Part shown: one piece after another, positions 3,184 to 54,114 of the stretch
Layout: each line of letters starts with the position of its first letter
Numbering within the stretch: position 1 is the first letter of the stretch
From: Chrysomallon squamiferum
Lineage: Eukaryota > Animalia > Mollusca
Assembly: GCA_012295275.1 (NCBI GenBank)
Contig: CM022673.1
Coordinates: forward strand, 14,880,001-14,944,000
DNA length: 64,000 nucleotides
Reading direction: 5' to 3'
Program-made: the position numbers and the translations under genes
Notes under the pieces: model-generated
What the model was told of the DNA's origin: nothing
Databases searched by the model: none
Seen by the model: the letters and a program-made list of their open reading frames with translations, nothing else

Positions 3184-6100
3184 CCACTCGTTATTGCTTT
3201 CACCGACAAAGATCTACTTTGTGAAACTTTTGCCAAATGAAGCAGCAATTAAAACTTCCCACCAAAATTTACACTAACAAAAAAATTAGACAACCTTGTA
3301 GTTAATGAATAGGAAAGTTGACAGTTTAAAATTATGGAAAGCCAAATACTGTCGTCTGAAAGGAACAGAAAGCATCACATATTGGACAATCAACAGATTG
3401 AAAAGCTGGAGAAAAAAAAAAAAATATCTGAAATGTATCATTAAACAGTTGTGATCTCAAATAAGAGCATTGAAGGAAACTAAATTTAAAAAATTGTTAT
3501 GCCCATGCTGAAACGGAAATGAGTAAGAAAACACAAAATGAGGTTCCTCAAGAGTTCAGTCACTATAGAAGTCAGAGATTGAGACAAATAAAAAGCTTCA
3601 ATTCACATACAAGACAGAGCTATTGCTAATTTTTTTTTTTTACAATGTTAAATGTGGCTGCAAACAGGATTTGGAGGTTTATCTGAAAAACAGCAGGATT
3701 CCAACAAGTATATTTTTAAAGGTTTACTGGAAATCGTCTTCATATATTATTTCTAGATGCTGGACTTGCATTTTATTACACAGAAATAGGTGGGGGTTTT
3801 TTTACAACTATTCACCAGCCAAACGATTTACAAATTCTTCTCGTATTCAAAAGGAAAATCAAAAAGGTAGGTAGAGGGCAAGAACAGCATTTAATCTTAT
3901 CTGTGAATTTACATTGAAATCTGACATACCTGAGAATTTATTAGCCTCAGGAGGACAAACAGAAAAAAAGCTTTTCAGGGTACCAAGTATGAAGCGGAAA
4001 AGAAGAGAACTTTTCCAATGGAATTCCAATTTCTTTGGCGAATTTCTTAAATGGTCACGTATTGTTTATTTTTGTCTTTCGCTGCGAAAAAAGCCGTGTG
4101 AAGACCGTTAGAGAACTTCAATCATATATCCACAATAATATTACTGGTCAGAGAAATACAGTTTTGAATTATATTACATCACAAATTCAGAAACTTGCTG
4201 ACAACACTTTGAACAAGTTCAAGAAACTCGGAGACACTGGAATTCAATATGTTTCATTCCATCTGCCATGAAAGTTTTGCTCAGCTGAACCTGACCAGCA
4301 CAAGTGCCATAGCAGTGAGATCATGAAAGTTTGCAATTTGCCAAACAGAAGCAGGATCTCTTAAAACATCAGAATTGGATTAAGGTAAGGAATATTATGG
4401 CCAAGTGCCATCAGAGAAGGTCTGAATCAGTAAAGAGACTAAATCAAAAAAAATCAGGATAATTGCCCTTCTTTTCTCTTAAGTAAAATCACAGCTGGAT
4501 TCTTCTGCTCTTGCTGAAGGTCTGGGGAAAGCTACAAAAATCATATGTTTAGAAAAGAAATATCAGCAAATTAAGAAATACCATAAAATGAAAAAAATGC
4601 AATGTTTCTATCCCAGACTGATGATGAAAGAATGGAAGTATTGGAAAGGAAACTGGCAGAAAGGGAGGAGGAAATCCTCCAGCTTCAAGATGACAAACTA
4701 ATGCTAGAAGATGGGGTAAAAGAGCTGGAGAGTTTTGTTGAACAAACCAAGTCCAATGGGAGGACTTATTCTCCTGAAATGAGACTGAAAGTTTTTGATG
4801 CTGTTGTTGCCCAAGTCCCAATGAACAACATACCATCACTGATTAGAAAGTTTGCCCTTCGCTCTGGAACAACCCTAACTGTTGTTCCACACAGGACTAC
4901 AGTAGAAGCAATGGTAAGAGAACTTGGGGCAATAAGTGATCTTCAAATTGCAGAAGCTATTTTATATAATAAGGACTCAACTATTGGCTTTGATGCCACG
5001 ACAGAAGAAGGCATTCATTTAAACAGCATACACATCACCACCCATGCTGATTGCTATGTTGTTGCTGCCGATCAGTTACCTGGAGATACAGCCAATGACT
5101 ATCACATCTGTGATTCAATTGATAATGTCATTTGTCATTTCTTTGATAAAGACTATCAAACCATATGACAGATTAATTTCAAATATATCCAACGGTCTTA
5201 CTGACCGTTGTGCAGCAAACCATGCTGCAATACAGCTAGTGAACATTTCTTGGGACAAGACTAAACGAGTTGAACTGTCATTTACACCCACTGGACTCCA
5301 TAGCCACAAAAGCTAGATCAGTACTGAAGGAATGTGAAGGAGGTGCAAAAGGCTATATTTGGTGAAATGATTGCTATGCTTCAAATATCACTGTCCAGAT
5401 GAACAAACTCAGGTTTAAGGACAATAAGGGAAATCGCCAGGGGTTCAAAACTTTTCTTGATGACCACCACCTGCCTTGTGGAATCATTCTATAGTAGTAT
5501 CGGGGTAATCATCTTTGTGTACTTTATTATTTGTGGCATATATATTCAGAAATATCTTGAACAAGGTACAGTGTGTGGTGGATTGCATGCTAGTGTCTTG
5601 GCCGACTGTCAGTAACAGGGCAGAAAAATAAAACTCGACCATCTAGATGGCTTGGAAAAGGAGAGGAGAGAAGATTCTCATGCAGGCCGTACAATTAGAA
5701 GAAAAGAACGAGTTGAGAGTAGAATTATCAAGGTGACAAGCTGACAAATATCAAGCAAGAGACATCTGTGAGAAGAAACTGAAAACTGTTCAGGTTGCCA
5801 AGATAGAAAGCTCAGGAAATTCCTTGCCAATTAGTAAGTAGGAGCAACTCCAGGAATTGTTGGAAGGCAAATATATTTGGTTTTCAGATGGGCACCAGAT
5901 TCTTTACAATGGCAGAATTGAAAAGATGAAAGCTAAAGGAAGTAAGTGTGTTGTAGCATATTGTCACTGACAGAAACATGATGATGCAACTGACTTTGAC
6001 ATGTGTTGTTTTGAGTTGGCAGCACACCTTATTTCCGATAATCCACCAATTATTCTGTGGAATACAGCGAGTGGACTGCCATGATTAATGTTGTTTCTGA

Positions 6101-9100
6101 AATATGTATGAAGTGTCTCTTTAAGGACTGGGTGACATCTATGATTCTTGTTGGAAAGATTTACCACCAAAACAACTGACCTACAGGGTGGTTCACAAAA
6201 AGCGGTGCAATTTTAAAAACTTATTTTCCAGAGAAATTAATAATTTATTTCCATTTTCAGGTAAATGAATAGTAGTGTATTGCTGTAAGTTTTATCTGAT
6301 CGCATGATAGCGGACCATACTGTACTTTGAACGAGAACAGGTGATTTTGTGGCATAGGCAATTTTGGCATGAATTCCCAGGGAGGAAAATTCCACATCGC
6401 AATACTATCAGAAGGCTCATTGAGAAGTTTAGAGACACTGGTAGTGTGGGTAACAACAAGGGCCACATTGGTCCACATTTCACTGCCAGGACACTGGCTC
6501 ATGTTCAGGATGGTAGGACTCATTTGGAACAGTCACCACAGAAGTCCAGCAGACATCTGTCACATGAACTAGGGATTTCACGGAGTTATGTGATAAAAAT
6601 TATTCATAGTTGACTTGAAATCGTTTCCCTACAAAGTGCAGATTCTGCAAAGCCAGGCCAACAGGAATGAACACTATTGAATTTTGCTAGACAATTAGTG
6701 AACGGACTGAGGACAATCCTGGCCTTTTGGATGTCGACTTCAAAAAAGTACGGATAATAGATGTGTTTTTTCTACACTTGGGGTGCTTGCACATGCTCAT
6801 GAGGCTGTTCTCTGGCCCAGAACCTCATGTTTTGCTTATTCACATGCCTACTCAATTTCAAATTTTGCATTTGTTTTTTTTTCAGTGTTTGGTTTGGCTC
6901 ACAGAGTTGCCATTTCATTTTGGTAATATTGTCTTAATTTCAACTTATTTCAGTTGTCTTTTTTTTTCAGTGAATGACCAAAAGATGCCCTTTGTGTAAG
7001 AAGAAACAAAAGGTAGGTAGAGGGCAAGAACAGCATTTAATCTTATCTGTGAATTTACATTGAAATCTGACATACCTGAGAATTTATTAGCCTCAGGAAG
7101 ACAAACAGAAAAAAAGCTTTTCAGGGTACCAAGTTTGAAGCGGAAAAGAAAATCCTCAATTCAAGGACTGGTATAGCCAAGCAACACTTGGAAGAGAACT
7201 TTTCCAATGGAATTCCAATTTCTTTGGCAAATTTCTTAAATGGTCACGTATTGTTTATTTTTGTCTTTCGCTGCGAAAAAAGCTGTGTGAAGACCGTTAG
7301 AGAATTTTGTCTTAATTTCAACGTATTTCAGTTGTCTTTTATTTCAGTGAATGACCAAAAGATGCCCTTTGTATAAGAAGAAACAGTGCCTAATCAGATG
7401 TAACCAACCAAGCTTAGCTAGACAGCATCTTCAAGGAAATTATTCCAGTGTTCCGGCAACAGATGAGTTTTTGAATGGACACATGCTTTATATTTACACT
7501 AGCTGTGGTAGTAGAACAAAAACAGTTAGTGAATTATGTAGTCATTTGTCACCTACATCTGCACTAATTCCTAGTCCAACTTTCTGCTGAAATGTTGTGT
7601 ACCAGTTTGATAAGTTTCGAAATCTGGCTTATGCTGTAAAATTTAACAAATTTCTTGATGTGTGTTTCAAAAAATGTTCCTGATGGAATTCAGTAATTTA
7701 CACAAAAAACAAGATGAGCACCAACCTGGATTGAACTTCAACCCACAATATGTTACTGCTTCCCCAGACCCACATAATTTTTGGATATCAGTTCATACTG
7801 GGGAGAAGATTCAGAAGAGTCTGCCATTCAGATATTGACGAAACCATCAGCTAGTAGTTCATCCATGAAAACCAGACAAAGAAACTGCCAGTCATGCAGG
7901 TTATTAAACAAATCCTTAACAAATTTGAGTGTAAAACAGCTACAGCTTCAAAAGGTCCAAACATACTGCAATCAAAGATGTGAGCACAGCAAAGAAAAAG
8001 GGATCTGTCAAATTACTAAACCAAACAATCAGACTGAAAGAGGAACAGATAGCAAAACTTAAAGAAAAAAGTACCATTTCAAAGGTTGAACAGGAGGCAA
8101 ATTCTTTAATAAAAAAAAAAAAAAAATACACATGAAGATTGAAGTACCACAATGAAAAAATTAAAACCGAATCGGGAACTCTGCTCTGTGCCAAAAAGGA
8201 AATTTCTGAACTTAAAAGAAAACTTGAAATAAAACAAATGGAGATAAAACCCTGCTGGAAGCAAAGCTTCATGAGTCACTTAACTAAAATCAACAAAATG
8301 CAATGGAAAGGTCTATTCTACAGATTTAAGAATGGTGGTGTTTGATGCAATTGTAAATCAGGTGCCAACCAGCAACATCCCTGTTATTCTCCAGAAGTTT
8401 TTTCTGTGATGTGGTGTTCCACTGAAGGACATCCCACACAGAACCACTACTGAAGCAAAGACTGCACACTTGGTTTTAATGCCACAACACAGGAGGGCAA
8501 TGTTGTGAACAGTGTCCACATTGCCACACCAGAAAATTGTTATGCTGCTGCAGTTGATGAACTGGCTGGTGGGACTGCTGATGATTACCATGAACACATA
8601 TCTGACTTCTGAATGAATCATGGAACAAGACACGCAAATGGCAATTTAATTCATTGAATCTATTGGACTCAATTGCAACAAAAACTTGTGCTGCTCCAAT
8701 GATCTGTGAAGCAGAAATCAGAATAGAAGAGAGACTTAAGGGACAGATTTTGACAGATTAGCTCAGACAATCAGGATTAGCTCACAGGTATTCTCGTGGA
8801 TTTCGTTTCATTCTTTTGTGCAGTTAACAGGAATATTTGTTCACTTTCTTTACTCGTACTTTTTTACTTGGGATTACGACGGAATCGAAAACCAATCGCC
8901 ATCAAGAGATCTTAGGACACATTCCGACCAATCAACTTCGAGAAGCACTGCAGCCAATCAGACTCCCATCACTCTCGAGAGCTCTTCGGACACAGCAACG
9001 GGAACCGACCAATCAGCTTCAAGACTCACGGCAGCCAATCAGACTCCAAACAGCGACCAGACTACGGAATCGGTCAGCAGCCAATTGCCTTTAAGCTCTG

Positions 9101-9359
9101 CAACACCTTTTTATTACGGAGGATTAGCTGTTTGTTTACCTTTTGCGCTTCTTCGCACTTAGGAATCTATGTGCAAATTCGAACTTCGAGCACTGACGAA
9201 CAACCGACATCAAATTGGGTAAGAAACGGAATACTATCCTCCTCCCAGCATGACAATTCACTTTCCCAGCATGAAATTTTAAAATCCCTCTTGTTACCTC
9301 CCTATATCAAACCCTCTCCCCCACTGTCCTTGTTAATACTTCAACGCTCATTAATTGTG

Positions 9360-9394
<35 letters not shown>

Positions 9395-12300
9395 GATCGT
9401 TATTTAAATGATATAACGTTTTTTTTTTGATTACTAAATTAAATAAAAATTTACTGAAATTAACTAAAATTCTACATCTTGTATTAAAATATTAATTATA
9501 ACTATACTAAAAATAAAACAAGCAAGTTAACATATCAAATTAACCATACAATGGTGGACACAACCAAACCAGTCGGAACATCCAACATCGAAGAGGTTTC
9601 CCCCAAAAACTAGGAGAAACAGAAAGGGAACTCCCAGACTTGTCTTCTGGGAAGCCAAGAGAGAACGGAAACACATCTGACAGTTCACTAGACGACATCT
9701 ACGTGGGGCTCGTACAGACAACACCGGACGGTTCTCCCTGCACCGACCTGTCCACTCCCCCAGAATGTCCCCAAACCTCTAACTGGGCCACAAATGTCCC
9801 AGCCGGACTGACCACCGTTCCGGAGTCCCCTCAGCCAAAAAATAAAAATAAAAAATGCAAAACCCACCCAACTGTCCAATCTCCCCCAGAACAGCTATCA
9901 GTCAGCACAGCAAATAGATTTTCGGCCCTGGACATGCTCAACATCACTGTCCCCCAACAGGGCTCCCATAAATCCCTCAAACTGTCCGCCAGCCCTCCTA
10001 GACCTGCTAAGGCACCAATCTCCGGGCTGAGGCGGGTATTGTTCAACAAAAAAAAACCCAACCCTGTATGAAGCTATCTTCTTCCAACAGTACATCTCAC
10101 GACTGGGCCGAATCGGACAGCTCACTCATCAAACTGGGTACCAGCATGAAAGGTGTGTGTCACACTCGCGAGGTGTACGGAGGAACCTAGAGAGAGGAGG
10201 GAACCCACCCAAGTGAAGACCCTGAGCCCCTCTGCCCCCATCGAACTAAGATACTTCCAAGACCAAGAGAGTAGCAAGGAAATCCATCAACAATTGGACC
10301 GTACGGTGGCCTACGGCACCTGGGGGGGACTGCACCTTCACTGCAGAACCCCTAACCCAGGTAAACACCAAATCAAAAAAAAAGAAACAGAAACCATACA
10401 CAGAAACAAAAGAAACACCACACAAAAAGGAATTTTTACAAGTAGCAACCAACACAAACCCGACAATACCCAAACAAAAATACAAATACCGCCAAGATAA
10501 CCCCACAAAACAAATCCCCCAAAGCCCCCACAAACTATCAAACAACACAGAGGAGTTTCCGCACCTCACCCTCAAACCAGGAAGAACCTGGCCCCGAGAG
10601 TTCTTTTACTCGAGCACAGGCAAAAGCCATTCCGCAACAACAAAACACCCCACAAAAAGACAATACACAACACCTAAGACACACATGACACCAACAGCAA
10701 CCACCACAGCAACAGATCACTCGCTAAGGCGACTGGTGAAAGCAAAACCAGTTTCTGAAACAGCTACACAAATCTTACAAATAGCAAAAGAAAACCCAGA
10801 CGATGATTCAGAACATCACGATCTGGAACAACGGCTACTGGGATGTGCTTCTGTCTGCCGCAACAAAAGCAGAGCACATCCTATTCCAGAAACAATTCAA
10901 ACTGCTGGCGTTTGAGGCACACCCCATAAAATGCGCCCAGTGCCAGAGATGGGGACATAATATAAAAAAATGCATGTAAAAGATCTGTGATAGGCGTGCC
11001 TGAACCTTCAATTGGACGTGGGCACGTAAAAAGAGTTAGAAGAAGATTCGCTCACCGATTTTCATCTTCAGTTTCGAACTTAGAACACTCGACATCAAAT
11101 TTGATTCGCTCCAGATTTGTTCGATTCCATACAGATTCACTTCAAAGTTTCTGTTTTACTACACAAGGAGTAATTGTTCAACTTTCTCACTTGGGATTGC
11201 CGTTCATTTGTTCTTGCAAATTCATTCCATTGGTTTGCACTTAGGAATACTTAGGAAAAGCTTTCTAGGATTATTGTATACACGATCGCCAAACAGCAAA
11301 AGGAATTGAGATCTAACCAATCAACGACGAGCTAGCGTCAATAAAAATCCAGTCTGAACAAGAACCTGTCGACCAATCAATTTAGAGACATCTTCAACCA
11401 ATCAGAATCCACAGTCTACCAGGGATTATCTGTTCATCTGTGAAACTTCCCAAATTAGGATTCCAATTCAATTTCTTAGAACATTCGACATCAAATTTGG
11501 TAAGAAACGGAATCCTATCATCCCAGCACGTCATACTCACTTTCCCAGCACCAAACTTTGAAACTTCCTCTTATCTCTCCCCTTACCAACCTCAAACCCT
11601 CTCCCCAGTGCTATTTTTGTCAAATATTTTAAATTTGTATTCTAACTGTATTAATTTCATACATATAAATATAAATATATAATTATTATTTAAATGTTAA
11701 ATTTTTCAGAAATTTAATAATTTAACTTTGTTTACTGCTCTCCTTCTGTAGTGTCATTAGTTGAAATTTTAATTATATTGAATATTTAATTTGTTCAATT
11801 ATATTAAATATTTAATTTGTGAAAAAAAATTTAAAATAATAATTAACCAATTGTATACTAAATAAAAATGGCCGATACAAACGAATCCGTCGGCACAGGT
11901 ATCACCGAAAATGGCAACCAGAACGAGGTTTCCCCCAAGAAACTGTGCGGAACGGAGGGGGAACTACCACACTTCTGCTCTTTTGGCTCCCCGGACGACA
12001 GGGACAACGGAAACCTATCCGACAACTCTGCGGGAGACACCATATATGCGGGGCTGGTAGAGACGACACCCGACAGCTCTCCCCGCCCCAACCTGTCCAA
12101 TCCCCCAGAATGTACCCAAATATGCAACTGGCCAACAAATGTCCCAGCCGGACTGACCACCATTCCGGAGTCCCCACAAGTGAAAAAACAAACAAAAAAA
12201 AAAGGAAAACCCACCCAACTGTCCAATCCCCCCCAGAACAGGCTCCAGTCAGCACATCAAACAGATTTTCAGCCCTGGACATGCTGAGCATTGCTGTTCA

Positions 12301-15300
12301 CCAACAGGCCTCGCAAAAATCACTGAAACTGTCAGACAGCCCCCTAGGCCGCTAAGTCCCCAATCCACGGGCTGAGACAGGTTTCTTTTATTAAAAAATA
12401 CACGTCTATATGAAGCCATTTTTTTTTTCCAACAGTCCGTCTCGCGACTGTTGGACGACACTATACCACACCCGGATGTCAGATGAGGCTACCTTCATCA
12501 GGGCCGATTTAGACCTTTCACTTATCAAACTGGGTACCAGTATTGAACTGATGCCCAACCCCATAGTGTCAAAAGGTGTGTGTCACACTAGAGGTGTACC
12601 AAGGAACCTCACGAAAGGAGAGGACCCTCACCCACAAAACTCTATATCCCAAACGGACAGGCTTACTCGCAGGACATAACAATTAGCCAAAGCATCCATA
12701 GACAAATGGACAAGACGGTGGCTTACGGCACCTGGGGGCAATGCACTTTCGTTGCAGAACCCCTAAAACAGACAACACCAACCAAAACAAGGCCGACAAC
12801 ACAACGACAGAAATACAAACAGCGACATGACGGCCATACGAAACAAATTCCCCAACACGCCCCCAAAGTAGCAATAGACACAGAGGAGTTCCCGCTCCTC
12901 AACCTGACGCCGGGACGACCCTGGCCAAGAGAATTCGTATACACCCATGTACCACCAACTGGACGGGCAGCCTCCACACCTCAACAACACCCCACAAAAA
13001 AACACCCACTACACAACACAAAGGGCACACAAAACAGCAACAACAACCACCACAACAGACCAATCCTTACGAAAACTAGTAAAAATACAACCTGGCAAGG
13101 AAACAACAAAACAAATACTAGAAGCGCCAAAGAAAGAAAACCCAGATGCGATGATTCAGAACATCACGATCTGGAAAAACGGCTACTGGGATGTACTTCT
13201 GTCTGCCACAACACAAGCAGAGCACATCCTATTCCACCAGAAACCATTCGCCCAGCCCACTCTCAGACAACAACAAAACAACTCAAACTTTAACCCGTCT
13301 CAGAGTTGGAGTGACCTTCGGACTAAATGACAGCAGACAGACTCGACAACACTGAGTGACAAGTGCGGCACATGCCATAAACTGGACAACGTCAGACACT
13401 ATATTTTTTACTGCATCAAATACGACAAGGACAGACGCAAACTAAACACAGCTTTAACAAACATCAAAGTCAGATTTACTCCAGCTGACATTTTCAACCC
13501 CCCCAAACACCTAAAAAAAGAAGTAGACAACCTGATAATGCGATTCGTGGAAGCAACAAAAGTCAAAATATAAACACAGACACATTCACAAAACACTACA
13601 TAAAATAAACACATCCGTATCCAACCCCAGAACCAACTGGCAACCTCTCCTCGATGTCTGAACTCCAAAAATTAACGCGACGCCAACAAAAAGCACGACC
13701 ATTTTTTTTTTTTTTTTATTATTAAATAATAGTACAAACTAAATAAATAAATAAACAAATAAATATAAATAAATAAAACCCCTTAAACAGTGCCCAATGC
13801 ATACCTACATATATATGTGTGTGTGCATGTATCTATGTGTATGGGTCTGTATATAGGTATCTACTGCACCCTTTTGGATCTTAATAAGTAAAAACCACTC
13901 AAAGGTTTATTCCAAATTGCCCACTTCAAATGCACCTGCACCCTTCCCTTCCCATTCCTTTTCCCCCTTTTCCCTTCCCCTCTCCTGTCCGGGAACCCAT
14001 CCCTGGCGATCCCAGAGACCGGATCCGTGATAGGCGTGCCCGAACCTTGAATTGGACGTGGGCACGTAAAAAGAGTTCTCCATCCATCCGATTAGCTCAG
14101 ACCAGATTAGCTCAGACGTTTCCGTAATTCAGTCGACAATTCGTGTTCTCGTTCACTTTCGCTCACATTAGGATTCGCGCAGTTTCGATCCAAGAAGTTT
14201 CCGTGTTTTTGTTAGAAGGAATAAGTGTTCAACTTCCGCACTGGGATTACCGTTTATTTCCTGCAAATTCGATAAAAGTGTGATAGGAATACTTCTAGGA
14301 AAGCAAAAGGAATTGAGTTCTAGCCAATCGTCGACGAGCTAGCGTTCAACCAATAACATTCCAGTTCCAACGAAAGTCTGCAACCAATCAACGATGAGCT
14401 AGCGCCAGCCACTAAAAAGCCAGTCTGCACAAAAAGCTGTCGACCAATCAACTTAGAGACAGCACCAACCAATCAGAATCCACAGTCCACCGGGAATTAT
14501 CTGTTCATCTTTGAAACTTCCCAAATTAGGATTCCAATTCAATTTCGAACTTAGAACACTTCGACATCAAATCTGGTAAGAAAAGGAATCCTATCATCCC
14601 AGCACGTCATACTCACTTTCCCAGCACCAAACTTTGAAACTTCCTCTTATCTCTCCCCTTACCAACCTCAAACCCTCTCCCCCAGTGCTAGTGTTGTCAA
14701 ATATTTTAAATTCGTGTATTGTAATTATTAATTTAATATTAATTGCATATAGACAAATATAAATATATAAATATTATCTTAACTTTTAATTCTTGGAATA
14801 TTATTAGCAAAACTAAATTTAATAATTTAACCTTGTTTGCTTTTTTGTAGTGTCATTAGTGAAATAAAAATAATTAATCAACTCGTATACTAAATAAAAA
14901 TGGCCGATACGAATAAATCCATCGGCACAGTTAGTGCCGAGGTTGCCCCTCAACAAATCTGCGGAACGGAGGCGGAATTACCACGCGTGGAATCTCTTGA
15001 CTCCCCGGTCGACAGAGACAATGGAAACCTATCCGACAACTCTGAGGGGGACACGATATACGTGGGACTGGTAGAGACGACACCCGACGGCTCCCCCCGC
15101 CCCACCCTGTCCCCAGACTGTAAACAAATCCTCAACTGCACCGCAACTGCCCCAACCGGAATGACCATCATTCCAGAGTCCCCACAACACAAAAACAAGA
15201 AAAGGAAAACCCACCCAACTGTCCAATCCCCCCCAAAACAGGCTCCAGTCAGCACATCGAACAGGTTTTCAGCCCTGGACATGCTGAGCATTGCTGTTCC

Positions 15301-18300
15301 CCAACAGGGCTCGCAAAAATCCCTCAAACTGTCAGCCAGCCCCCTAGGCCCGCTAAGTCCCCAATCCCCGGACTGAGACGGGTCTTTTTTAATAAAAGAA
15401 ACCCGTCTCTGTACGAAGCGATCTTTTTCCAACAGTCCATCTCGCGACTGTTGGACGATACCTTTTATCACACCCGGATGTCAGATGAGGCAACCTTCAT
15501 CAGGGCTGACTCGGACACTCCACTCATCAAACTGGGTACCAGTATTGAACTGATGCCCAACCCCATGGAGTGTCAAAAGGTGTGGGTCACACTGGAGAGG
15601 TGTACCAAAGAACCTCACGAAACGAGAGGACCCTCACCCCCAAAACAAACAAACCCATCTACCCCAAACGGACAGACATACACACAGGACAAAACAAGCA
15701 GCCAAGCCATACACAGACAAATGGACAAGACGGTGGCTTACGGCACCTGGGGGCAATGCACTTTCGTTGCAGAACCCCTAAAACAGACAACACCAACCAA
15801 AACAAGGCCGACAACACAAAGACAGAAATACAAACAGCGACATGACAACCCTACGAAACAAATTCCCCAACACGCCCCCAAAGTAGCAATAAACACAGAG
15901 GAGTTCCTGCTCCTCAACCTGACGCCGGGACGACCCTGGCCAAGAGAATTCATATACACCCATGTACCACCAACTGGACGGGCAAACTCCACACCTCAAC
16001 AACAAAACACCCCACAAAGAAACACCCACTACACAACACAAAGGGCACACAAAAAGCAACAACAACCACCACAACAACAGACCAATCCTTACGAAAACTA
16101 GTAAAAATACAACCTGGCAAGGAAACAACAAAACAAATACTGGAAACACTTAAAGAAAACCCAGACGTGATGATTCAGAACATCACGATCTGGAACAACG
16201 GCTACGGGGATGTGCTTCTGTCTGCCACAACAAAAGCAGAGCACATCCTATTCCAGAAACAGTTCAAACTGCTGGCGTTTGAGGCACACCCCATAAAATG
16301 CACCCAGTGCCAGAGATGGACATAATATAAAAAAATGCATGTAAAAGATTCGTGATAGGCGTGCCTGAACCTTCAATTGGACGTGGGCACGTAAAAAGAG
16401 TTCTCCATCCATCCATTAGCTCAGATCAGATTAGCTCAGACACAGATTTTGATCCTTTTTTTTCGTTCAGAACATCGTTGGGGACGGCACGCATTTTGAT
16501 TACTCTCGCTTTTCACTCGTTTTGCCTGGGATTTCGTTTCATTCTTTCGTGGAGTTATCAGGAATATCTGCTCACTATTTTGTACTCGTACTTCGTACTT
16601 GGGATTACGTGATTACCTATTCTTGTACCGTGTAAACGCGACGGAATCGAAAACCAGCCAATCGTGTAACAGATCTCTGCTCATAAACCATTGGCGTAGA
16701 ACGAACCATCAAGCAATCAATCGCCATCGAGAGATCTTAGGACACACTCCGACCAATCAACTTCGAGAAGCACTGCAGCCAATCAGACTCCCATCACTCT
16801 CGAGAGCCCTTCGGACAGCAATGGGAACCGACCAATCAGCTTCAAGACTCACGGCAGCCAATCAGACTCCAAACAGCGACCAGACTACTGAATCGGCCAG
16901 CAGCCAATCGCCTTTAAGCCCTGCAACCCCTTTTCAATACGGAGGATTAGCTGTTTGTTTACCTTTTGCGCTTCTTCGCACTTAGGAATCTATGTGCAAA
17001 TTCGAACTTCGAGCACCGACGAACAACTGACATCAAATTGGGTAAGAAATGGAATACTATCCTCCTCCCAGCACAACACAATACACTTTCCCAGCACGAA
17101 ATTTTAAACTCCCTCTTGTTACCTCCTTATACCAACCTCAAACCCTCTCCCCCACTGTCCTTGTTAATACTCCAACGCTTATTGTATATATATATATATA
17201 TATGTATCTGATCGTAATTTAAATGATATAAAGTTTTTATGTTGAGTACTAAATTAACTAAAATTCTACATCTTGCACTAAAATATTAACTATAACTATA
17301 CTAAAAATAAAAATAACTTTAAATATACTAAAAATAAAACAAGCAAGGTAATATATCAAACTAAACATACAATGGCGGACACAAACAAAACAGTCGGAAC
17401 AGCCAACACCGAAGAGTTTTCCCCCAATAAACAAGGAGTCACAGAAAGGGAAATCCCAGACTTCTCTCTCGGCTTCCCAGACGACAACGGAAGCACGTCT
17501 GACAGCTCACTAGACGACAATCTACGTGGGGCTCGTACAAACACCGGAAGGTTCTCCCTGCCCCGACCTGTCCACTCCCCCAGAATGTCCCCAAATAAAT
17601 GTCACAGCCGGACTGACCACCGTTCCGGAGTCCCCTCAACCTAGAAATACAATTAAAAACAAAAAACGAAAAACACACCCAACTGTCCAATCTCCCCCAG
17701 AACAGCTGCCAATCAGCACAGCAAATAGATTTTCGGCCCTGGACATGCTCAACATCGCTGTCCCCCAACAGGGCTCCCATAAATCCCTCAAACTGTCCGC
17801 CAGCCCTCCTAGACCCGCTAAGGCACCAATCCCCGGGCTGAGGCGGGTATTGTTCAACAAAAAAAACCCGACCCTGTACGAAGCTATCTTCTTCCAACAG
17901 TCCGTCTCGCGAAAGGTGAGGGTCGAAAGGTGAGTGTCACGCTTGCGAGGTGTACGGAGGAACCTAGAGAGAGGAGGGTCGCCACCCAAGTGAAGACCTT
18001 GAGCCCATCTGCCCCCATCGAACTAGGATACTCCCAGGACGAAAGGAGCAGCGAGGAAATCCATCGACATTTGGACCGTGCGGTGGCCTACGGCACCTTC
18101 ACGGCAGAACCCCTGGCCCAGGTGGACGCCAAACCAAGGAGAAAGAAACAGAAACAACAAAACAAACACCACACAAAAAGGACTTTTTAAAACTAGCAAA
18201 CACACACCCGACAATACCGAAACAAAAAAACAAATACCGCCAAGATAACCCCACAAAACAAATCCCCCAAAGCCCCCACAAACTATCAAACAACACAGAG

Positions 18301-21300
18301 GAGTTCCCGCACCTCACCCTCAAACCAGGAAGAACTTGGCCCCGAGAGTTGTTACTCGAGCGTGCCACCAACTGCACGGGCAAAAGCCATCCCGCAACAA
18401 CAAAACACCCCACAAAAAGACACTCATTACACAACACCTAAGATACACACGACACCAACAGCAACCACCACAGCAGCAGATCACTCGCTAAGGCGACTGG
18501 TGAAAGCAAAACCAGTTCCTGAAACAGCTATACAGGTATTACAGATAGCGAAAGAAGAAAACCCAGAGGTGATGATTCAGAACATCACCATCTGGAGCAA
18601 CGGCTACTGGGATGTGCGTTTGTCTGCTAACACGACAGTAGACCACATCCGCTTCAAGAACGAACACCTACAACTGTTGACGTTCACAACACAACCCATC
18701 AAATGCGCCCAGTGTCAACGATGGGGAAACAACACAAAAAAATGCAGGTCGTTGCGGGGACACCCAACGTGTTTCAGGTGTGGGGGCAAACACCCCAAGA
18801 AAACGCCGGACAACCCGTGCCGCCAACCCACCCAATGCGCAAACTGCAACGGCCGACACTACACACACAGCCACCTGTGCACGGCCTACCGCAACGCACT
18901 GAAACACCTGGAGACCATAAAAACCACACACAGCTAGCCCCCCTCACGCATCAGGCACACACTCATACACACCAGCCCCCACGACAGACGCAAAACAAGG
19001 ACAGCTGGGCAAAATAACCAACAAAGACAGCCCAGTGACAGCCCTCCAACTACTCAGGGTTGTCACTGGCCTATTCCTAGACAGATCCCTGCGAACCCCC
19101 AACCCCAACCCCAACTCCAATAGATCGGACGAAAACAAAGAAAGCCACTGTGGCAGCATGTCTAACCCTACAGCACCACCTGGGAATACTGCTCGACACT
19201 GTGCTCCCACACGCAATCAACTTTTACCAAAACAACACCAACACCGAAAACACTAAACAAATATAATAAATACAGTCAAAATACATGCAACAGAACCAAC
19301 CTCTAACACTATCAAACTCCTTCACATCACACATGGGAGACAAACAAAACATTAAACACAAACAAGCCAAAGGCCTTAACATCCTACAATGGAATGCCAA
19401 AGGCCTCAAAACAGGAGGCCATGGCGAAGAACTCAAACACTACATAACTAACTCTAATATACAGTTAGACATAATATGCATAAAAGAAACCTGGATCACC
19501 AACACACAAACACGGAAGAATCAACTCTTCCAAAACTCATTCTAGGTTTCTATGGTTTCTTTCACAACACCAACTGCACCACTAGAGGAGGAGTAGCGAC
19601 ATTTGTCAGAAACAGGTTTGGACCACATGGACCATAAGGAAGCAGCCAAAAAGGAACAACAGCAGCAAAAAAAGAAACATCAGAAGCCAAAAAGAAACAA
19701 CGACAGCAGCCAAGAGCAGAACAACCAGGACGGCAAACAACACAGACCCGGTGATGGCTGAGAGATTGTGCCGGATATCACGGGGGGCAAATTGCGGCTG
19801 CGATACATCCGTACCGACTCGTTACGATCCGATATGCTGGACACTTCCTTGTGTCCTGCAATCGTGGCGAGAATCCATTCTTTTCCCTACCCAAAACTTT
19901 TCTGCAACGGACACGCCCGCTGACCTGTCAGAAAGTGTGCCCGTCGCAGACGTGCTTCACAACAGCTTGCTCTGATTGGCACGTTAATTTTTTTCCATTC
20001 CATTCCATTCCAATTTTTGGACTCTCAGAAACCACAGATTAGCTCAGATTCACTTGCTCAGCATTCCCGTTCAACTTTCCGACAGACACAAGACGTCACA
20101 GATTCGCTCCACTTGCTCAGTTTTCCAGATTCGCTGTTTCGATCCAAAAAGTTCCCGGTTTCTAGAAGGAATAATTGTTCAACTTCCGCACTTGGATTGC
20201 CATTTAATTGTTCCTGCAAATTCGCTAAAATTGTGATAGGAATACTTCCAGGACCACGGTACACACGATCGCGAAAAACAAAAGCAAAAGGAATTGAGTT
20301 TCAGCCAACCATCGACGAGCTAGCGTTCAACCAATAACATTCCAGTTCCAACGAAAGTCTGCAACCAATCAACGACGAGCTAGCGCCAGCCACTAAAAAG
20401 CCAGTCTGCACAAAAAGCTGTCGACCAATCAACTTAGAGACAGCACCAACCAATCAGAATCCACAGTCCACCGGGAATTATCTGTTCATCTTTGAAACTT
20501 CCCAAATTAGGATTCCAATTCAATTTCGAACTTAGAACATTCGACATCAAATCTGGTAAGAAAAGGAATCCTATCATCCCAGCACGTCATACTCACTTTC
20601 CCAGCACCAAACTTTGAAACTTCCTCTTATCTCTCCCCTTACCAACCTCAAACCCTCTCCCCCAGTGCTAGTGTTGTCAAATATTTTAAATTCGTGTATT
20701 GTAATTATTAATTTAATATTAATTGCATATAGACAAATATAAATATATAAATATTATCTTAACTTTTAATTCTTGGAATATTATTAGCAAAACTAAATTT
20801 AATAATTTAACCTTGTTTGCTTTTTTGTAGTGTCATTAGTGAAATAAAAATAATTAATCAACTCGTATACTAAATAAAAATGGCCGATACGAATAAATCC
20901 ATCGGCACAGTTAGTGCCGAGGTTGCCCCTCAACAAATCTGCGGAACGGAGGCGGAATTACCACGCGTGGAATCTCTTGACTCCCCGGTCGACAGAGACA
21001 ATGGAAACCTATCCGACAACTCTGAGGGGGACACGATATACGTGGGACTGGTAGAGACGACACCCGACGGCTCCCCCCGCCCCACCCTGTCCCCAGACTG
21101 TAAACAAATCCTCAACTGCACCGCAACTGCCCCAACCGGAATGACCATCATTCCAGAGTCCCCACAACACAAAAACAAGAAAAAGGAAAACCCACCCAAC
21201 TGTCCAATCCCCCAAAAACAGGCTCCAGTCAGCACATCGAACAGGTTTTCAGCCCTGGACATGCTGAGCATTGCTGTTCCCCAACAGGGCTCGCAAAAAA

Positions 21301-24300
21301 ATCCTCAAACTGTCAGCCAGCCCCCTAGGCCCGCTAAGTCCCCAATCCCGGACTGAGACGGGTCTTTTTTTAAAAAAGAAACCCGTCTCTGTACGAAGCG
21401 ATCTTTTTCCAACAGTCCATCTCGCGACTGTTGGACGATACCTTTTATCACACCCGGATGTCAGATGAGGCAACCTTCATCAGGGCCGACTCCGACACCC
21501 CACTCATCAAACTGGGTACCAGTATTGAACTGATGCCCAACCCCATGGAGTGTCAAAAGGTGTGGGTCACACTGGAGAGGTGTACCAAAGAACCTCACGA
21601 AACGAGAGGACCCTCACCCCCAAAACAAACAAACCCATCTACCCCAAACGGACAGACACACACACAGGACAAAACAAGCAGCCAAGCCATACACAGACAA
21701 ATGGACAAGACGGTGGCTTGCGGCACCTGGGGGCAATGCACTTTCGTTGCAGAACCCCTAAAACAGACAACACCAACCAAAACAAGGCCGACAACACAGA
21801 CGGAAATACAAACAGCGACATGACGGCCATACGAAACAAATTCCCCAACACGCCCCCAAAGTAGCAATAAACACAGGAGTTCCTGCTCCTCAACCTGACG
21901 CCGGGACGACCCTGGCCAAGAGAATTCATATACACCCATGTACCACCAACTGGACGGGCAGCCTCCACACCTCAACAACAAAACAGCACCCCACAAAAAA
22001 ACACCCACTACACAACACAAAAGGCACACAAACCAGCAACAACTGCCACCACAACAACAGATCAATCCCTACGGAAACTCATAAAAAAAACAACCTGGCA
22101 TGGAAACAAAACATACTGGACGCATTAAAAAAAGAAAACCCAGACGTGATGATTCAGAACATCACTATCTGGAAAAACGGCTACTGGGATGTGCTTCTGT
22201 CTGCCACAACAAAAGCAGAGCACATCCTATTCCACAACAGAACATTCAAACTGTGGGCGTTTCAGACACACCCCACAAAATGCGCCCAGTGCCAGAGATG
22301 GGGACACAACACAACAAAGTGCAGGTCGTTGCAGGGGACACCCAACGTGTTTCAGGTGTGGGGGCAAACACCCCAAGAAAACGCCCGACAACCCGTGCCG
22401 CCAACCCACCCAGTGTGCAAACTGCAACGGCCGTCACTACACACACAGCCACCTGTGCGCGGCCTACCGCAACGCACTGAAACACATGGAGGCCAAAAAC
22501 ACACACACAGCAACCCCTCCTCACTCGTCAGCCATACACCCATACACACCAGCCTCCAGGACAAACACAAGACAAACACAAACAGGCTCAATCAACAACA
22601 AAGACAGCCCAGTGACAGCCCTCCAACTACTCAGGGTTGTCACTGGCCTATTCCTAGACGGAGCACTACAAACTCCCAACCCCAACCTAAATAACAGATT
22701 GGAGGCAGCGGTAAAAAAAGCCACGATGGCGGCATGTCAAACCCTACAACACCACCTGGGAATACCGCTGGAACTAGACACTGTGCTCCCACACGCAAGC
22801 AACTACTACAAAAACATCACCAACACCGAAAACACTAAACAAATAAAATAAATACAGTCAAAATACACGCAACAGAACCAACCTCTAACACTACCAAACT
22901 CCTTCACATCACACATGGGAGACAAACAAAACATTAAACACAAACAAGCCAAAGGCCTTAACATCCTACAATGGAATGCCAAAGGCCTCAAAACAGGAGG
23001 CCATGGCGAAGAACTCAAACACTACATAACTAACTCTAATATACAGTTAGACATAATATGCACACAAGAAACCTGGATCACCAACACACAAACACGGAAG
23101 AATCAACTCTTCCAAAACTCATTCTAGGTTTCTATGGTTTCTTTCCACAACACCAACTGCACCACGAGAGGAGGAGTAGCGACATTTGTCAGAAATGAGC
23201 TCTCCTACTCACGTATCACACTCACAAATCACCACATCAACATAGAGACACTTGGGATATCAATACATGGCCAGGATGAAGACATTAACATTTTTAACTA
23301 TTACACCCACCCAGGCAAAAATCAATGCAACATAACACTCGAACACTACACTAAAAGCATTCCCGCTAAATTTATCGACAACTCCATTGTACTAGGGGAC
23401 TTCAACAGCAGAAACCACCTATGGGGTTCCTCTAGTACAGGCAAACAGGGAATCATCGTCAAAAAATTTATGGAGCTTAACAAACACATGTCTGAACGAT
23501 GGCACGCCAACCTTCCTATCAGACATATACAACACCTGGTCATGCATTGATATCTCAACAGTGTCTGAAACAATAGCCTCTAAATGCGAATGGAAAGTCC
23601 TCAACAACCTCAACAGTGATCACCTACCAATACTCATCTCATACAACACACAAAACAACTGGAAAGAGGTAACAATAAACAAACACAAATGGAACTTCAC
23701 GAAAGCCAACTGGACTGAATTTAAAAAACAATGTCTGGACACAGACCCTAAACTCATTCGAAGCAATAATATCGACACTTTTAACCAAAATTTAACTGAC
23801 AAAATAATTAGCATTGCTTATAAAACTATTCCAATTTCTAATTATAAATACAAAAATAATTCAGTCCCTTGGTGGAGTGAAGAACTAAAACTCCTCACAA
23901 AGGCACGCAACAAACATCGCAAAACATACCAAAAACACAACTCAGCAACCAACCTCGCAAACCTCAAAATCAGTAAACACAAAGTCTCACAAGCCGTGCT
24001 ACATGCAAAAAGAGAATCGTGGAAAACCTTCTGCACATCTATCAACATCAACACATCTAGTAAGGAAATTTGGGCCAGAATCAAACGCATACAGGGCAAA
24101 CCAATTAGCAAGAACACACTACTCGTCCGCAACAAAACCTCCATACAAACAAAGAGAAGGCCGCTGCTCTGGGAGATGTCTTTAAACACAACTCGAGTAC
24201 AAACAACTTTCCCCCCAAATTTCGAAAAATTAAAAATAAATTAGAAACAGTCAACAAAATTCCACCTGACTCAAAAACCCCAGGAACAAAATATAATATT

Positions 24301-27300
24301 CCCTTCACACTCCCAGAAATGACAGCGGCCTTCTCCGACCGTAAAGGAACGGCCCCAGGGCCAGACAAATTCTCCTACCTATTCTTTCAAAACATGCCCA
24401 CAGACATGCTAAATCTATTTCTGGAACTCTATAACACTATCTGGAAGGAAGGATACCTTCCCCTCAAATGGAAGCATGCTGACGTCTTCAGCCTTCCAAA
24501 ACAGGGCAAGGATCTTTCCAACCCCTCCAACTATCGTCCTATCTCACTAACGTCCTGTGTCTGCAAAACCATGGAGGCTATGGTCAACAAACGCCTAACC
24601 CACTTTCTGGAAAAGAACCAACTCATTTCGGCCTTTCAAAGTGGTTTCCGAAAAAACCACTCCACAAGCGACCACATAACCAGATTACAATCTGAAATAT
24701 CCGAGTCTTTGTTTACTGGACAAAAAGTGTTTGTTGACATAGAAAAAGCCTATGATATGGTCTGGAGACATGGTCTTCTAATTAAAGTCTACAACATGGG
24801 CATAAGAGGCCCTATGTTCGGCTTTATAGAAGCGTTCTTGAAAAATAGATCCTTTACGGTCAATGTAAACGAAAACTTCTCAGACAGCTTGGATTTGGAG
24901 AATGGGATCCCCCAGGGTTCAGTTATCGCCCTACTCTTTTTTTAGCATTTTTATTAATGACCTAGCACATAAACTAGCCACTAACTCGAAAAACCGCAAC
25001 TAAGCTTAGCATAGGATTATTTGCGGATGATACAGCCTTTTGGCGTGCTGGAAACTGTCTTAAACAAATCGAAACAGATCTGCAAAAAGACTTAAATAAC
25101 TTACAAAATTGGGCGGAAACTTGGGGAGTCACCATCTCCCAATCCAAGACTGTCACCGTATACTTTGGGAGAAAAGTCAACATTAAACACAATAAAATAA
25201 ACCTACACTACAACAACACAAAAATCCCACAAGTAAACGCAGTCAAATTCCTGGGAGTCACCTTCGACAGGTGCCTTAACTTTAAACAACACATCACCAA
25301 CACAATCAACACATGCACACAATACATGAACCTACTGAAAGTGCTTTCGAACGCCAAATGGGGAGCTGACAGGTCATCTCTCTTGATGGTGTTCAAGCAT
25401 TAATAGTGTCGAGACTCCAGTATGGATCCCAGGCGTTCAGCGGTGTGTCTGAATACCAACTAAAACGGCTAGACACCGTCTACAACAAGGCACTCAGAAT
25501 TGTTGCAAGGGTATTCCCAGGCACACCGACGGACAGTCTGTTTGTGGAACTAAACATGCTGCCGCTGCGAATCCGACGCAGCACACAGTGTCTCAAACAC
25601 TGGTTCAAAATAAAAAATCTCATCCCCACCCATCCCATAAACACAATAATCCCAAACAACTTACCCTACATCAACGACAGAGAAGCATCACTCAACGACA
25701 CACACAGGACAGCAAAAAGACTAAACCTACTGGACCTAGAACTTGAAAACAACCCGTCACCCTTAGAACCCCCATGGACAATGAAACAACTTGACATACC
25801 TCTAACGCTTAGACAGGCAGTATCGACGACGGAACACGACCCATTTAAAAACGTAATTTTTAGAGCAGCACTAAGCGACAACTACTCGGACTTCGTACAA
25901 ATATACACGGACGGCTCCAAAGACCCTTTCACGGGAAGAACCGGCATGGCCTTTCATGTCAGGCCGGAACTACCCGACGTACCCTTCAACTACAAAGGTA
26001 GACTGACCAACAACCTATCCGTCTTCACTACGGAACTAATAGCTATTCTCTCGGCACTTAAATGGGTCTTAACTCAAACTTACGTCAATAGCCAAAAAAA
26101 GAAATACCTCATACTGACTGATTCCCTCAGCTCACTGCAATTCTGCACAAACTCAAATTCAGCAGCTCCCAGTACATTAGACAGATTATCGAACTCACAA
26201 ACTGTATCACCCACAGAGGACACAAGGTCACCTTCGAGTGGGTACCCGCCCACGTGGGTGTTACTGGAAACGAGCTGGCAGACAAAAACGCAAAACACTC
26301 GATAGAAGACAACACGATTGGCTGACTAAATACGTTAATGAAATCATGACCATAGCGCACAATAAGCTAATAAAATCATGGCAACAAGACTGGGACAACA
26401 AGACTAGACTATAGCACTACATAATCAAACCAAAAGTCAACTCGCCCAGCCCACTCTCAGACAACAACAAAACAACTCAAACTTTAACCCGTCTCAGAGT
26501 GGGAGTGACCTTCGGACTAAACGACAGCAGACAGACTCGACAACACTGAGTGACAAATGCGGCACATGCCATAAACTGGACAACGTCAGACACTATTTTC
26601 TACTGCACAAAGTACAACAAGGACAGACAAATTAAATGTATTCAGCAAATATCAAAGTCAGGTTTACTCCATTTGACATTTTCAACCCTCCCCCCAAACA
26701 CCTAAAAAAAACAAGTGGACAACCTCAGTGCGAAATGTGGAAGCAACAAAAATCAATTTTAAAACAGTTTACAAGTGGGGGTGTCTGCAGGGGGGCGGTG
26801 ATTGGGTGTGAGATGGGAGACGATACCTGACAGTGCCGACTCCCCTCCTCCATCGGTCGGGGTTAGGAGTTTCGGTATGATTCCCATATCCCGACTCATT
26901 TTCGAATTTTTCAGTTCGGTCAATTAGTTCGTTTCGGAGAAAAGTCCGAAAATTTTTCTCGTATTCAACACGTTAAAATCAGTCATTTTCAATATCGGAG
27001 GAAAATCTATCTAAGGGCAGGTAGAGGCGAAGAATAATATTTTATTATATGTGAATTTATATTGAAATCTGACATACCCGAGATAATTTATTAACCCCGG
27101 GAAGAATAGCTGTAAAATCTAAATGGTTTCAAAATCAAATATGACGGATGAAAATTCTAGTGAAACAGAAGTGATTTCTACCCTCGATTTCAGCCATTAT
27201 GTTTGATAAATGAGTGATAGAACACACTGATGCTGTATAAATATACAGTGGTACTATACGTCACACTTATTACCCGATGGATTGTAAATTGTGGATGATT

Positions 27301-54075: not shown

Positions 54076-54114
54076 ACTTGTGCTCAACCGTTTCAACAAT
54101 CTCTCTCCATCATC

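What the first reader, a model, noticed from the sequence alone, without database searches (positions are those of the whole stretch)
11067..11113. A LINE copy begins with what looks like a spliced-on copy of the family's own internal leader exon
Seen: near its 5' end, copy 2 carries TTCAGTTTCGAACTTAGAACACTCGACATCAAATTTG (11067-11103). This matches 34 of 37 nt of the internal segment 20519-20555 and its equivalents ending at 11499 and 14575. The match starts at an Inr-like TCA(G/A)TT and stops exactly at the G|GTAAG donor. It is joined to ATTCGCTCCA, and the same 10-mer in copy 5 (20102-20111) directly follows CACAG, an acceptor-like AG. Known: LINEs must carry their promoter in the transposed RNA, and Drosophila HeT-A borrows the promoter of its upstream neighbour. 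Inference: the promoter of an upstream copy fires and the leader of about 35 nt is spliced, in cis across that copy or in trans, onto the start of a downstream copy. The resulting RNA holds the complete element with its CCAAT promoter and was reverse-transcribed. I do not know of a described LINE family that does this, but it rests on one junction here.
Basis: partly seen in the sequence, partly recalled or inferred. Interest (0 to 1): 0.88.

Follow-up and report, generated by a model that had tools for sequence, protein, structure and literature searches.

The report
LINE copy carrying its own leader
In what is likely a snail genome, one copy of a jumping gene (a LINE retrotransposon) carries near its front a 37-base duplicate of the family's own internal leader that ends exactly at a conserved splice-donor motif; it was likely spliced on from a sister copy's RNA and then copied into DNA, which, if routine, would be an unusual way for such an element to keep its promoter.

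Summary
Bases 11067-11103 match the internal segment 20519-20555 at 34 of 37 and stop at G|GTAAG, the most conserved spot in the 5' UTRs of five head-to-tail LINE copies, just downstream of a CCAAT array. Contigs from two other studies cross the junction, though with only 30 and 11 letters on its left. The tag fits the commonest subfamily's leader, not the upstream neighbour's or copy 2's present one.

The cited AG in copy 5 is a poor acceptor. The tag is preceded by 29 unexplained bases and flanked by a 9-nt repeat. Copy 2 lacks about 4.2 kb. No RNA contig crosses the junction, and no start site was mapped.

Best reading (0.5): the leader of a sister copy was spliced, in cis across a tandem neighbour or in trans, onto a copy's front and then retrotransposed. 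This is a self-derived version of the first-exon/L1 chimeras described in mammals. Weak leader-like remnants at the fronts of copies 4 and 5 (p about 0.03-0.07) and a second tail-to-leader locus hint at recurrence but do not show it.

The parts
11067..11103 (+). Tag: duplicate of the family's internal leader, ending at the donor position
   Evidence: 34 of 37 to 20519-20555; inferred 36 of 37 to the most deeply covered leader contig in runs X1 and X4
11104..11113 (+). 10-mer joined to the tag; one of the ATT(A/C)GCTC units at the copies' fronts
   Evidence: Only at 11104 and 20102; 10 such units on the + strand, all in the five fronts
11038..11066 (+). Unexplained 29-nt piece before the tag, holding a 9-nt repeat (11045-11053) of the junction sequence
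   Evidence: 4 nt longer in a contig of run X9
10982..11037 (+). 3' terminal piece of copy 1 (the family's 3' end, here without its CCAT tail)
   Evidence: Repeated at 14027-14077, 16352-16402 and 53969-54075; very deeply covered, with CCAT-type loose ends
11317..11402 (+). CCAAT boxes of copy 2, downstream of the tag
11467..11499 (+). Copy 2's own internal leader, 4 nt shorter than the tag, followed by GTAAG
20331..20454 (+). CCAAT array of copy 5, likely the promoter
   Evidence: function inferred
20519..20555 (+). Internal leader of copy 5 (equivalents 14538-14575, 9172-9218, 16995-17041)
20556..20610 (+). Donor plus conserved 55-nt block ending in a pyrimidine-rich CAG at +49 to +53
   Evidence: 44 of 55 columns identical in all five copies; AG list
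20070..20101 (+). Weakly leader-like segment in copy 5's front, at the same position as the tag in copy 2
   Evidence: Top 0.5-0.7% of 63,414 background positions; 34-72 of 1000 shuffles reach the score
16456..16498 (+). Weakly leader-like segment in copy 4's front
   Evidence: 25, 66 and 209 of 1000 shuffles reach the score for three leaders
14091..14105 (+). Candidate target-site duplication left of copy 3 (partner 16415-16429)
   Evidence: 14 of 15 identical
8757..11037 (+). Copy 1: type A front, last ~180 nt 97% like copy 3, internal deletion from ORF1 to the 3' end
11038..14089 (+). Copy 2: type B, about 4.2 kb deleted, long 3' region with two hairpins and CCAT tail
14090..16414 (+). Copy 3: type B, same deletion junction as copy 1
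16415..20010 (+). Copy 4: type A, broken in the endonuclease, joined to a sister-type 3' end with the same two-hairpin shape
20011..26756 (+). Copy 5: near full length but frameshifted (ORF1 zinc knuckles, endonuclease, RT, RNase H)

Best explanation
Copy 2 of a head-to-tail array of LINE copies carries, 29 bases from its front, a duplicate of the family's internal leader that ends exactly at a conserved GGTAAG motif; it likely arose when a sister copy's transcript, predicted to start just downstream of the CCAAT array, was spliced from that donor onto the front of another copy, and the chimeric RNA was likely retrotransposed. Shown: the tag, its end at the motif, the conservation of that motif, the CCAAT array, the 3'-tail-to-front junctions, and that the tag fits the commonest subfamily's leader. 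Inferred: the start site, the use of the donor, the acceptor, and cis (across an upstream tandem copy) versus trans. On present evidence this is an occasional chimera; a routine step of the family's life cycle is not shown.
For: There is one GTRAG in the 850-nt 5' UTR of copy 5 and two in the 6727-nt copy, so a random breakpoint lands on it about 0.2% of the time within the UTR (my arithmetic, 2 positions of 850; 33 of 850 if any GT counts). The donor is kept in 5 of 5 copies of two types and centres the best-conserved window. The leader starts about 70 nt (type B) or 90 nt (type A) after the last CCAATC box, a usual NF-Y spacing (recalled). Type A copies have no pyrimidine-rich YAG between +53 and the ORF1 start, which could leave the donor free for distant acceptors. 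At 3 of 4 junctions the upstream tail gives 68-74% pyrimidines before an AG in the next front. The tag has the 4 nt that copy 2's leader lacks and the two variant letters of the deepest leader contig. The junction is in DNA contigs of studies P2 and P3. A 63-nt contig in X1 and X4 (one study) joins a sister-type 3' tail to the leader region 14 nt before the tag's start, as a copy of an RNA begun there would. Precedent: of 17 L1/mRNA chimeras, 6 exons end precisely at donors, some with no acceptor found in the L1 (PMC13174262 section 13).
Against: It rests on one clear junction. The acceptor context at 20101 is poor. The 29 nt before the tag do not belong to the known leader, and a 9-nt repeat flanks the piece like a target-site duplication. 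The array shows recombination or conversion: copy 1 switches from type A to 97% copy 3, and copy 4 is 99% like copy 5 over 19265-19565, so a DNA route exists. A conserved CAG at +49 to +53 could close a short ordinary intron. Copy 1, the present neighbour, is not the donor. Copies 1 and 3 show no leader-like piece at their fronts. In 20 related loci from other hosts with long upstream sequence I saw no CCAAT-array-plus-donor layout, and none of 80 loci matched the 5' UTRs beyond a 23-nt chance-level hit; those relatives are only 23-54% identical.
Confidence: 0.5

Rival explanations
1. No RNA-RNA splice: the reverse transcriptase copied a free leader exon (a splicing intermediate ending at the donor, or a short capped RNA), either by jumping onto it from the 5' end of copy 2's RNA or by inserting it separately at the family's preferred front motif.
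For: A 9-nt direct repeat flanks the piece. A 15-bp duplication (14 of 15) round copy 3 suggests insertion into a sister's front; Nimb-2_DR makes 10-15 bp duplications and 5' extra nucleotides (PMC4245944 passages). All 4 junctions in the array are 3' tail to front. The same 3' end abuts a histone H2A 5' UTR at 54075. The acceptor at 20101 is poor. Template jumping by R2 RT is recalled, not read.
Against: A free first exon is normally held in the spliceosome (established knowledge). It needs two or more jumps to explain the 29-nt piece. Repeated ATT(A/C)GCTC units occur in all five fronts, so the 9-nt repeat is not special.
Confidence: 0.2
2. DNA-level event: gene conversion or recombination copied the internal leader over an older leader-like segment already in the front, or a local duplication ended at the donor by chance.
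For: The fronts of copies 2 and 5 are collinear (score 73; 0 of 300 shuffles) and copy 5 has a weakly leader-like piece at the tag's position. Copies 1 and 4 are mosaics of both types. Four of five copies carry large internal breaks, as in the rotifer element Hebe (PMC2861651 passages).
Against: A chance end at the donor is about 0.2%. If an older paralogue fixed the end, that paralogue still needs an origin at the donor. The leader-likeness of the older piece is weak (34-72 of 1000 shuffles) and was noticed after the fact.
Confidence: 0.18
3. Back-splicing within one copy: the donor joined an upstream AG in the same RNA, and reverse transcription of the circle or of a wrap-around RNA gave the duplicate.
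For: Donor downstream and joint upstream in the same element. It needs no neighbour.
Against: The tag differs from copy 2's own leader by two substitutions and a 4-nt indel. Copying would have to stop near the predicted start by chance, and a circle of about 400 nt lacks the 3' end needed for priming.
Confidence: 0.07
4. The leader and the conserved block are a spliced-leader (SL) RNA mimic dedicated to trans-splicing.
For: Length 34-37 nt, a TTG end and a GGTA junction fit listed SL traits (PMC3795323 passages). The 55 nt after the donor are more conserved than the leader.
Against: No stable fold (z +1.22 and +1.40); 0 of 15 pairs with a compensatory change; AT4-6G within 150 nt of the donor in 1 of 5 copies; the type A leader is about 10 nt longer and ends TGG. 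The passages seen list molluscs among phyla with unconfirmed candidates only.
Confidence: 0.03
5. Assembly artefact.
For: Repetitive array; neither supporting contig meets the 31-letter bridging rule.
Against: Contigs of two further studies run through the joint, and an X9 contig runs from copy 1's end through the tag to 11101.
Confidence: 0.02

Closest known systems
Mammalian L1 first-exon chimeras, e.g. MAP3K13-L1PA5, FHIT-L1PA4, RAP1GDS1-L1PA2 (Law and Burns 2026, PMC13174262; passages and section 13 read)
   Same: A first exon ending precisely at a donor is fused in sense to the front of a LINE and retrotransposed; cis- or trans-splicing is proposed; an acceptor is sometimes missing.
   Different: There the exons come from host genes. 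Here the exon is the family's own, the copies form a tandem array, and the carrier is internally deleted.
Drosophila HeT-A and TART (PMC1636488 and PMC2377424, passages read)
   Same: Head-to-tail arrays. HeT-A starts in the upstream copy. TART's main start lies just before ORF1, inside a longer 5' UTR, and read-through or a template jump was proposed to explain the full-length copies.
   Different: HeT-A's promoter is in the 3' UTR and needs no splice; these elements are telomeric. Chains of 5' tags in HeT-A are recalled only (paper not held).
Penelope of Drosophila virilis (PMC2377424, passages read)
   Same: Partial-tandem copies supply the promoter; a conserved 75-bp intron begins 46 bp after the start and is kept in genomic copies.
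   Different: A different class of element (GIY-YIG endonuclease). The intron is spliced locally, and no leader duplicate was seen in the passages read.
L1 SpIREs (PMC5860796, abstract and outline read)
   Same: Splicing in a LINE 5' UTR is fixed by retrotransposition.
   Different: SpIREs lose promoter sequence; here sequence is gained at the front and the CCAAT array is kept.
Polyomavirus leader-leader splicing (PMC9007360, passages read)
   Same: A leader donor splices across a whole genome unit to the next unit, duplicating the leader.
   Different: A circular virus genome, shown in RNA and not retrotransposed; an analogy only.

Membership tests
I-group LINE (I/Nimb) | ORF2 with endonuclease, RT and RNase H | tested here: met
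   RVT_1 E=6e-20; RNase_H E=1e-4 and Exo_endo_phos_2 E=0.006, both under Pfam cut-offs on frameshifted pieces; relatives of about 1230 aa with all three domains
I-group LINE (I/Nimb) | ORF1 with three zinc knuckles | tested here: met
   Three knuckles in copy 4, the first lacking its His
I-group LINE (I/Nimb) | RT tree placement in the Nimb or I clade | not testable with these tools
   No clade-labelled reference sequences among the 120 listed hits
I-group LINE (I/Nimb) | Target-site duplication of 10-15 bp | tested here: inconclusive
   One 14-of-15 candidate round copy 3, inside repeated units; none clear for the other four copies (by eye)
First-exon/LINE splice chimera | 5' piece ends precisely at a splice donor, in sense | tested here: met
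   (donor by sequence and conservation; its use is not shown)
First-exon/LINE splice chimera | 5' piece begins at a transcript start | not testable with these tools
   Only contigs were available; Inr-like motif and CCAAT spacing only
First-exon/LINE splice chimera | Acceptor at the LINE side of the joint | tested here: inconclusive
   CAG present in copy 5, but 37% pyrimidines and AGs close upstream
First-exon/LINE splice chimera | Target-site duplication flanking exon plus LINE together | tested here: inconclusive
   11045-11057 resembles 14090-14105 only loosely (by eye)
HeT-A/Penelope-type borrowed promoter | Head-to-tail copies | tested here: met
   4 of 4 junctions are 3' end to front
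HeT-A/Penelope-type borrowed promoter | Transcription of a copy starts in the upstream copy | not testable with these tools
   An RNA-library contig covers 10996-11101, but contigs show no start or strand and DNA can be in the library
Spliced-leader RNA | Stem-loop fold around the donor | tested here: not met
   z +1.22 and +1.40; 0 of 15 pairs covary
Spliced-leader RNA | Sm site (AT4-6G) after the donor | tested here: not met
   1 of 5 copies; a variant motif recalled from memory in 3 of 5, type B only
SpIRE | Genomic copy lacking a 5' UTR intron | tested here: not met
   All 5 copies keep the donor and what follows; none of the 6 joints listed starts at 11499

The most novel reading that the evidence does not exclude
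The family's promoter fires downstream of itself, so a lone copy cannot pass it on. The family inserts at the fronts of its own copies, and an upstream copy's leader is routinely spliced across that whole copy onto the next one's front, giving an RNA that contains the downstream copy's promoter. The mosaic fronts, with fresh and decayed leader pieces, record repeated rounds.
Probability: 0.17. Interest if true: 0.82.

Novelty: new variant of a known kind. Interest (0 to 1): 0.48.

Why it matters
LINEs must carry their promoter inside the RNA they copy. Known solutions are downstream internal promoters, borrowing from an upstream copy's 3' UTR (HeT-A, Penelope), and self-cleaving ribozymes on read-through RNA. 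Treating a whole upstream copy as an intron would be a further solution. It would explain why this family keeps a conserved donor unspliced in its DNA, why copies sit head to tail, and why their fronts are mosaics. As a one-off it still extends donor-precise exon/LINE chimeras from mammals to a likely mollusc and to the element's own exon. It is directly testable with a genome assembly and long-read RNA.

Tried and rejected
No whole genome is held, so genome-wide tag counting was impossible.

Public runs: 11 listed, all contigs, one RNA; 5 of the 11 were laid. The RNA run X9 has no cover over 11120-11279 or 11472-11631 or past 20553; a hole proves nothing. Its tag-bearing contig is deeper (8.9) than its internal-leader contig (3), the reverse of the DNA runs, but contig depth cannot rank expression, so I give it no weight. 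I first read X9's bin depths as a hidden spliced contig; one search showed an ordinary internal leader contig, so I dropped that.

One search was meant to count other tags as loose ends at the donor and found none in 4 runs. It also showed no loose end for copy 2's own junction, which X6 holds, so the test was blind and is not evidence of absence.

Leader patterns gave 0 matches in metagenome contigs and viral contigs. The 80 related loci were too distant to test the 5' layout.

Rfam over 8000-27500 gave 4 matches at E 0.7-2.8, all far below gathering scores; no ribozyme or snRNA. The SL-RNA reading was tested and largely rejected. Splicing as the cause of the large internal deletions was rejected: none of the three junction types shows a clean GT..AG (by eye).

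I considered that the 50-nt piece before copies 2-4 is a histone promoter or an insertion target. I prefer the family's 3' end, because it follows ORF2's end at two places, folds like the sister 3' end and is followed by CCAT-type tails.

Earlier findings: nothing in 3 look-ups.

Full report
Setting. Window 8757-26756 holds five head-to-tail LINE copies. Only copy 5 is near full length: RT matches RVT_1 at 6e-20, with weaker RNase H and endonuclease matches. Relatives are proteins of about 1230 aa with all three domains, the best at 62% and 60%, the rest 48% or less. ORF1 ends in three zinc knuckles. This is I-group architecture; the clade was not placed. The host is likely a gastropod: for a galactosyltransferase exon in the window the most identical named hit is Gigantopelta aegis at 67%, most named hits are molluscs, and the top row by E-value is a coral protein at 53%. 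Copies 1 and 4 form type A, and copies 2, 3 and 5 type B, about 70-85% apart.

Observation. The tag matches 20519-20555 at 34 of 37 and stops at G|GTAAG; the chance is about 2e-11. Against copy 3 it is 35 matches plus one extra base. Copy 2's own leader lacks 4 nt. The 10-mer after the joint recurs only at 20102. The junction G is shared by both sides.

Is the junction real? Of 11 runs listed, 9 hold part of the array, from 3 studies, all as contigs. An X2 contig covers 11074-11429 with 2 substitutions and 1 gap, and an X6 contig covers 11093-11254. Both cross the joint, with 30 and 11 letters on the left, under the tool's 31-letter rule. A contig of the RNA library X9 covers 10996-11101 with no substitution and 4 extra letters just before the tag. 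It stops 2 nt before the joint and may be DNA.

Is the site a donor? GGTAAG is present at the same place in 5 of 5 copies. The best-conserved 30 columns of the 5' UTR alignment are 20544-20573 (26 of 30, against 31% on average), and the 55 nt after the donor are 44 of 55 identical. It is the only GTRAG in copy 5's 850-nt UTR. Each copy has 4-6 CCAAT within 450 nt upstream, against 0.65 expected, and the last CCAATC lies about 70-90 nt before the leader. That fits a promoter firing downstream of itself (NF-Y spacing recalled). A pyrimidine-rich CAG at +49 to +53 is conserved in all copies. Type B has further candidates at +110 and +252 to +284; type A has none. The donor could therefore close a short intron, serve U1-dependent functions without splicing (recalled), or reach a distant acceptor. 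None of the 6 joints listed over copy 2's UTR starts at the donor.

Where did the tag come from? Not from copy 1, whose type A leader is about 10 nt longer. The 4 nt missing from copy 2's leader are present in 904 of 1183 depth units in X1, 96 of 96 in X2 and 559 of 1241 in X6. The deepest leader contigs in X1 and X4 carry the tag's letters at 20540 and 20553. The tag thus fits the commonest subfamily at an inferred 36 of 37, and was acquired before or apart from the present arrangement.

The joints between copies. The piece before copies 2-4 is the family's 3' end. It follows ORF2's end in copy 2 and again at 53008-54075. Its summed contig depth is about 26,000 in X1 against about 60 for a locus-specific contig (not a copy number), and it has CCAT-type loose ends. 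It folds into two hairpins (z -1.75), as does the different piece before copy 5 (z -3.56; 0 of 200 shuffles); the copy at 53965 folds no better than shuffles (z -1.09). Copy 3 is flanked by a 14-of-15 repeat, in the 10-15 bp range of Nimb-2_DR duplications (PMC4245944 passages), which suggests insertion at a sister's front. A 63-nt contig in X1 and X4 joins the sister-type tail directly to 20505-20540 with 3 other letters: a second locus whose front lies at the leader region. What follows it is unknown.

The acceptor. The AG at 20101 has 37% pyrimidines upstream and AGs at 20085 and 20092, so it is a poor acceptor. The 32 nt before it align weakly to the leader when anchored at the 3' end: top 0.5-0.7% of 63,414 positions for 4 of 4 leaders, but 34-72 of 1000 shuffles of the same segment reach the score. 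Copy 4's front gives 25, 66 and 209 of 1000. Two sites in copy 3 give 269-915 of 1000, and copy 1's sites are at background. Nine sites were scored and these two were noticed after the fact, so this is a hint. The fronts of copies 2 and 5 are collinear (0 of 300 shuffles) and those of 2 and 4 weakly so (6 of 300). Better acceptor contexts arise where an upstream tail precedes the first AGs of a front (68-74% pyrimidines at copies 3, 4 and 5; 21-37% at copy 2).

Mechanism. The precise end at a unique, conserved donor points to splicing chemistry. I put spliceosomal joining of a sister's leader to a front, then retrotransposition, at 0.5; copying of a free exon by template jump or separate insertion at 0.2; conversion or duplication in DNA at 0.18, given the mosaics in copies 1 and 4; back-splicing at 0.07; an SL-RNA mimic at 0.03, since fold and Sm tests failed; and artefact at 0.02. 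Copy 2 keeps its CCAAT boxes but lacks about 4.2 kb, so a complete chimeric element is not shown.

Known systems. Law and Burns (PMC13174262; passages and section 13) describe 17 mRNA/L1 chimeras, 6 ending exactly at donors, and one co-opted promoter that gave several insertions. I did not read their Table S5, which holds the junction details. HeT-A starts in its upstream neighbour and TART mostly starts just before ORF1 (PMC1636488 passages). Penelope uses a partial tandem and keeps a 5' intron (PMC2377424 passages). SpIREs lose promoter sequence (PMC5860796 abstract). Hebe decays by internal deletions (PMC2861651 passages). Polyomavirus leader-leader splicing is an analogy (PMC9007360 passages). 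PMC4758252 (passages) reports Nimb elements in molluscs and a shared 70-bp LINE 5' domain, which I did not test here. In the listings of searches I saw no LINE described as splicing its own leader onto a sister copy; only listings were seen for most papers, and the library lacks most subscription papers.

Verdict. A real and unusual junction, best read as a self-derived first-exon chimera: a new variant of a known kind. The family-wide mechanism stays open at about 0.17.

Noticed in passing
window 53969-54400: The family's 3' end abuts an Inr-like start of a histone H2A 5' UTR. The H2A lacks its C-terminal part but keeps the stem-loop. The merged loose end of 11 X1 contigs behind the 3' end shares 10 letters in register with this UTR (agreement 0.48), hinting at more such joints and perhaps at a preference for start sites.
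   Followed up: partly
window 10970-10990 and 16335-16355: Copies 1 and 3 share one deletion junction from the first ORF1 knuckle to the last ~55 nt of the 3' end; a possible short non-autonomous derivative or a recombination product.
   Followed up: partly
window 19612-19990: About 380 nt of unknown origin join copy 4's broken endonuclease to a sister-type two-hairpin 3' end; a 16-nt part of it recurs near 1760, before another decayed LINE.
   Followed up: partly
window 14166-14190 and 14522-14549: Copy 3's front holds a short diverged likeness of the region just before its internal leader (by eye).
   Followed up: no
window 20575-20608: Two TCCCAGCA motifs in the conserved block after the donor resemble ZNF143/Staf sites (recalled), so the block may be a downstream promoter element.
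   Followed up: no
window 3852-8750 and 26999-29992: The array lies among decayed copies of another repeat with a broken ORF and no Pfam match, possibly a DNA transposon.
   Followed up: no
protein clusters of P0001 and P0002: Members of the two closest sister families lie on contigs of equal length (67407), and some lengths recur within a cluster, hinting at co-clustering in a related genome.
   Followed up: no
window 39280-39960 (-), 45159-45370 (+), 55733-56458 (-): Host exons: ribosomal protein S10-like (by eye), glycosyl hydrolase 47 and a Fringe-like galactosyltransferase.
   Followed up: no
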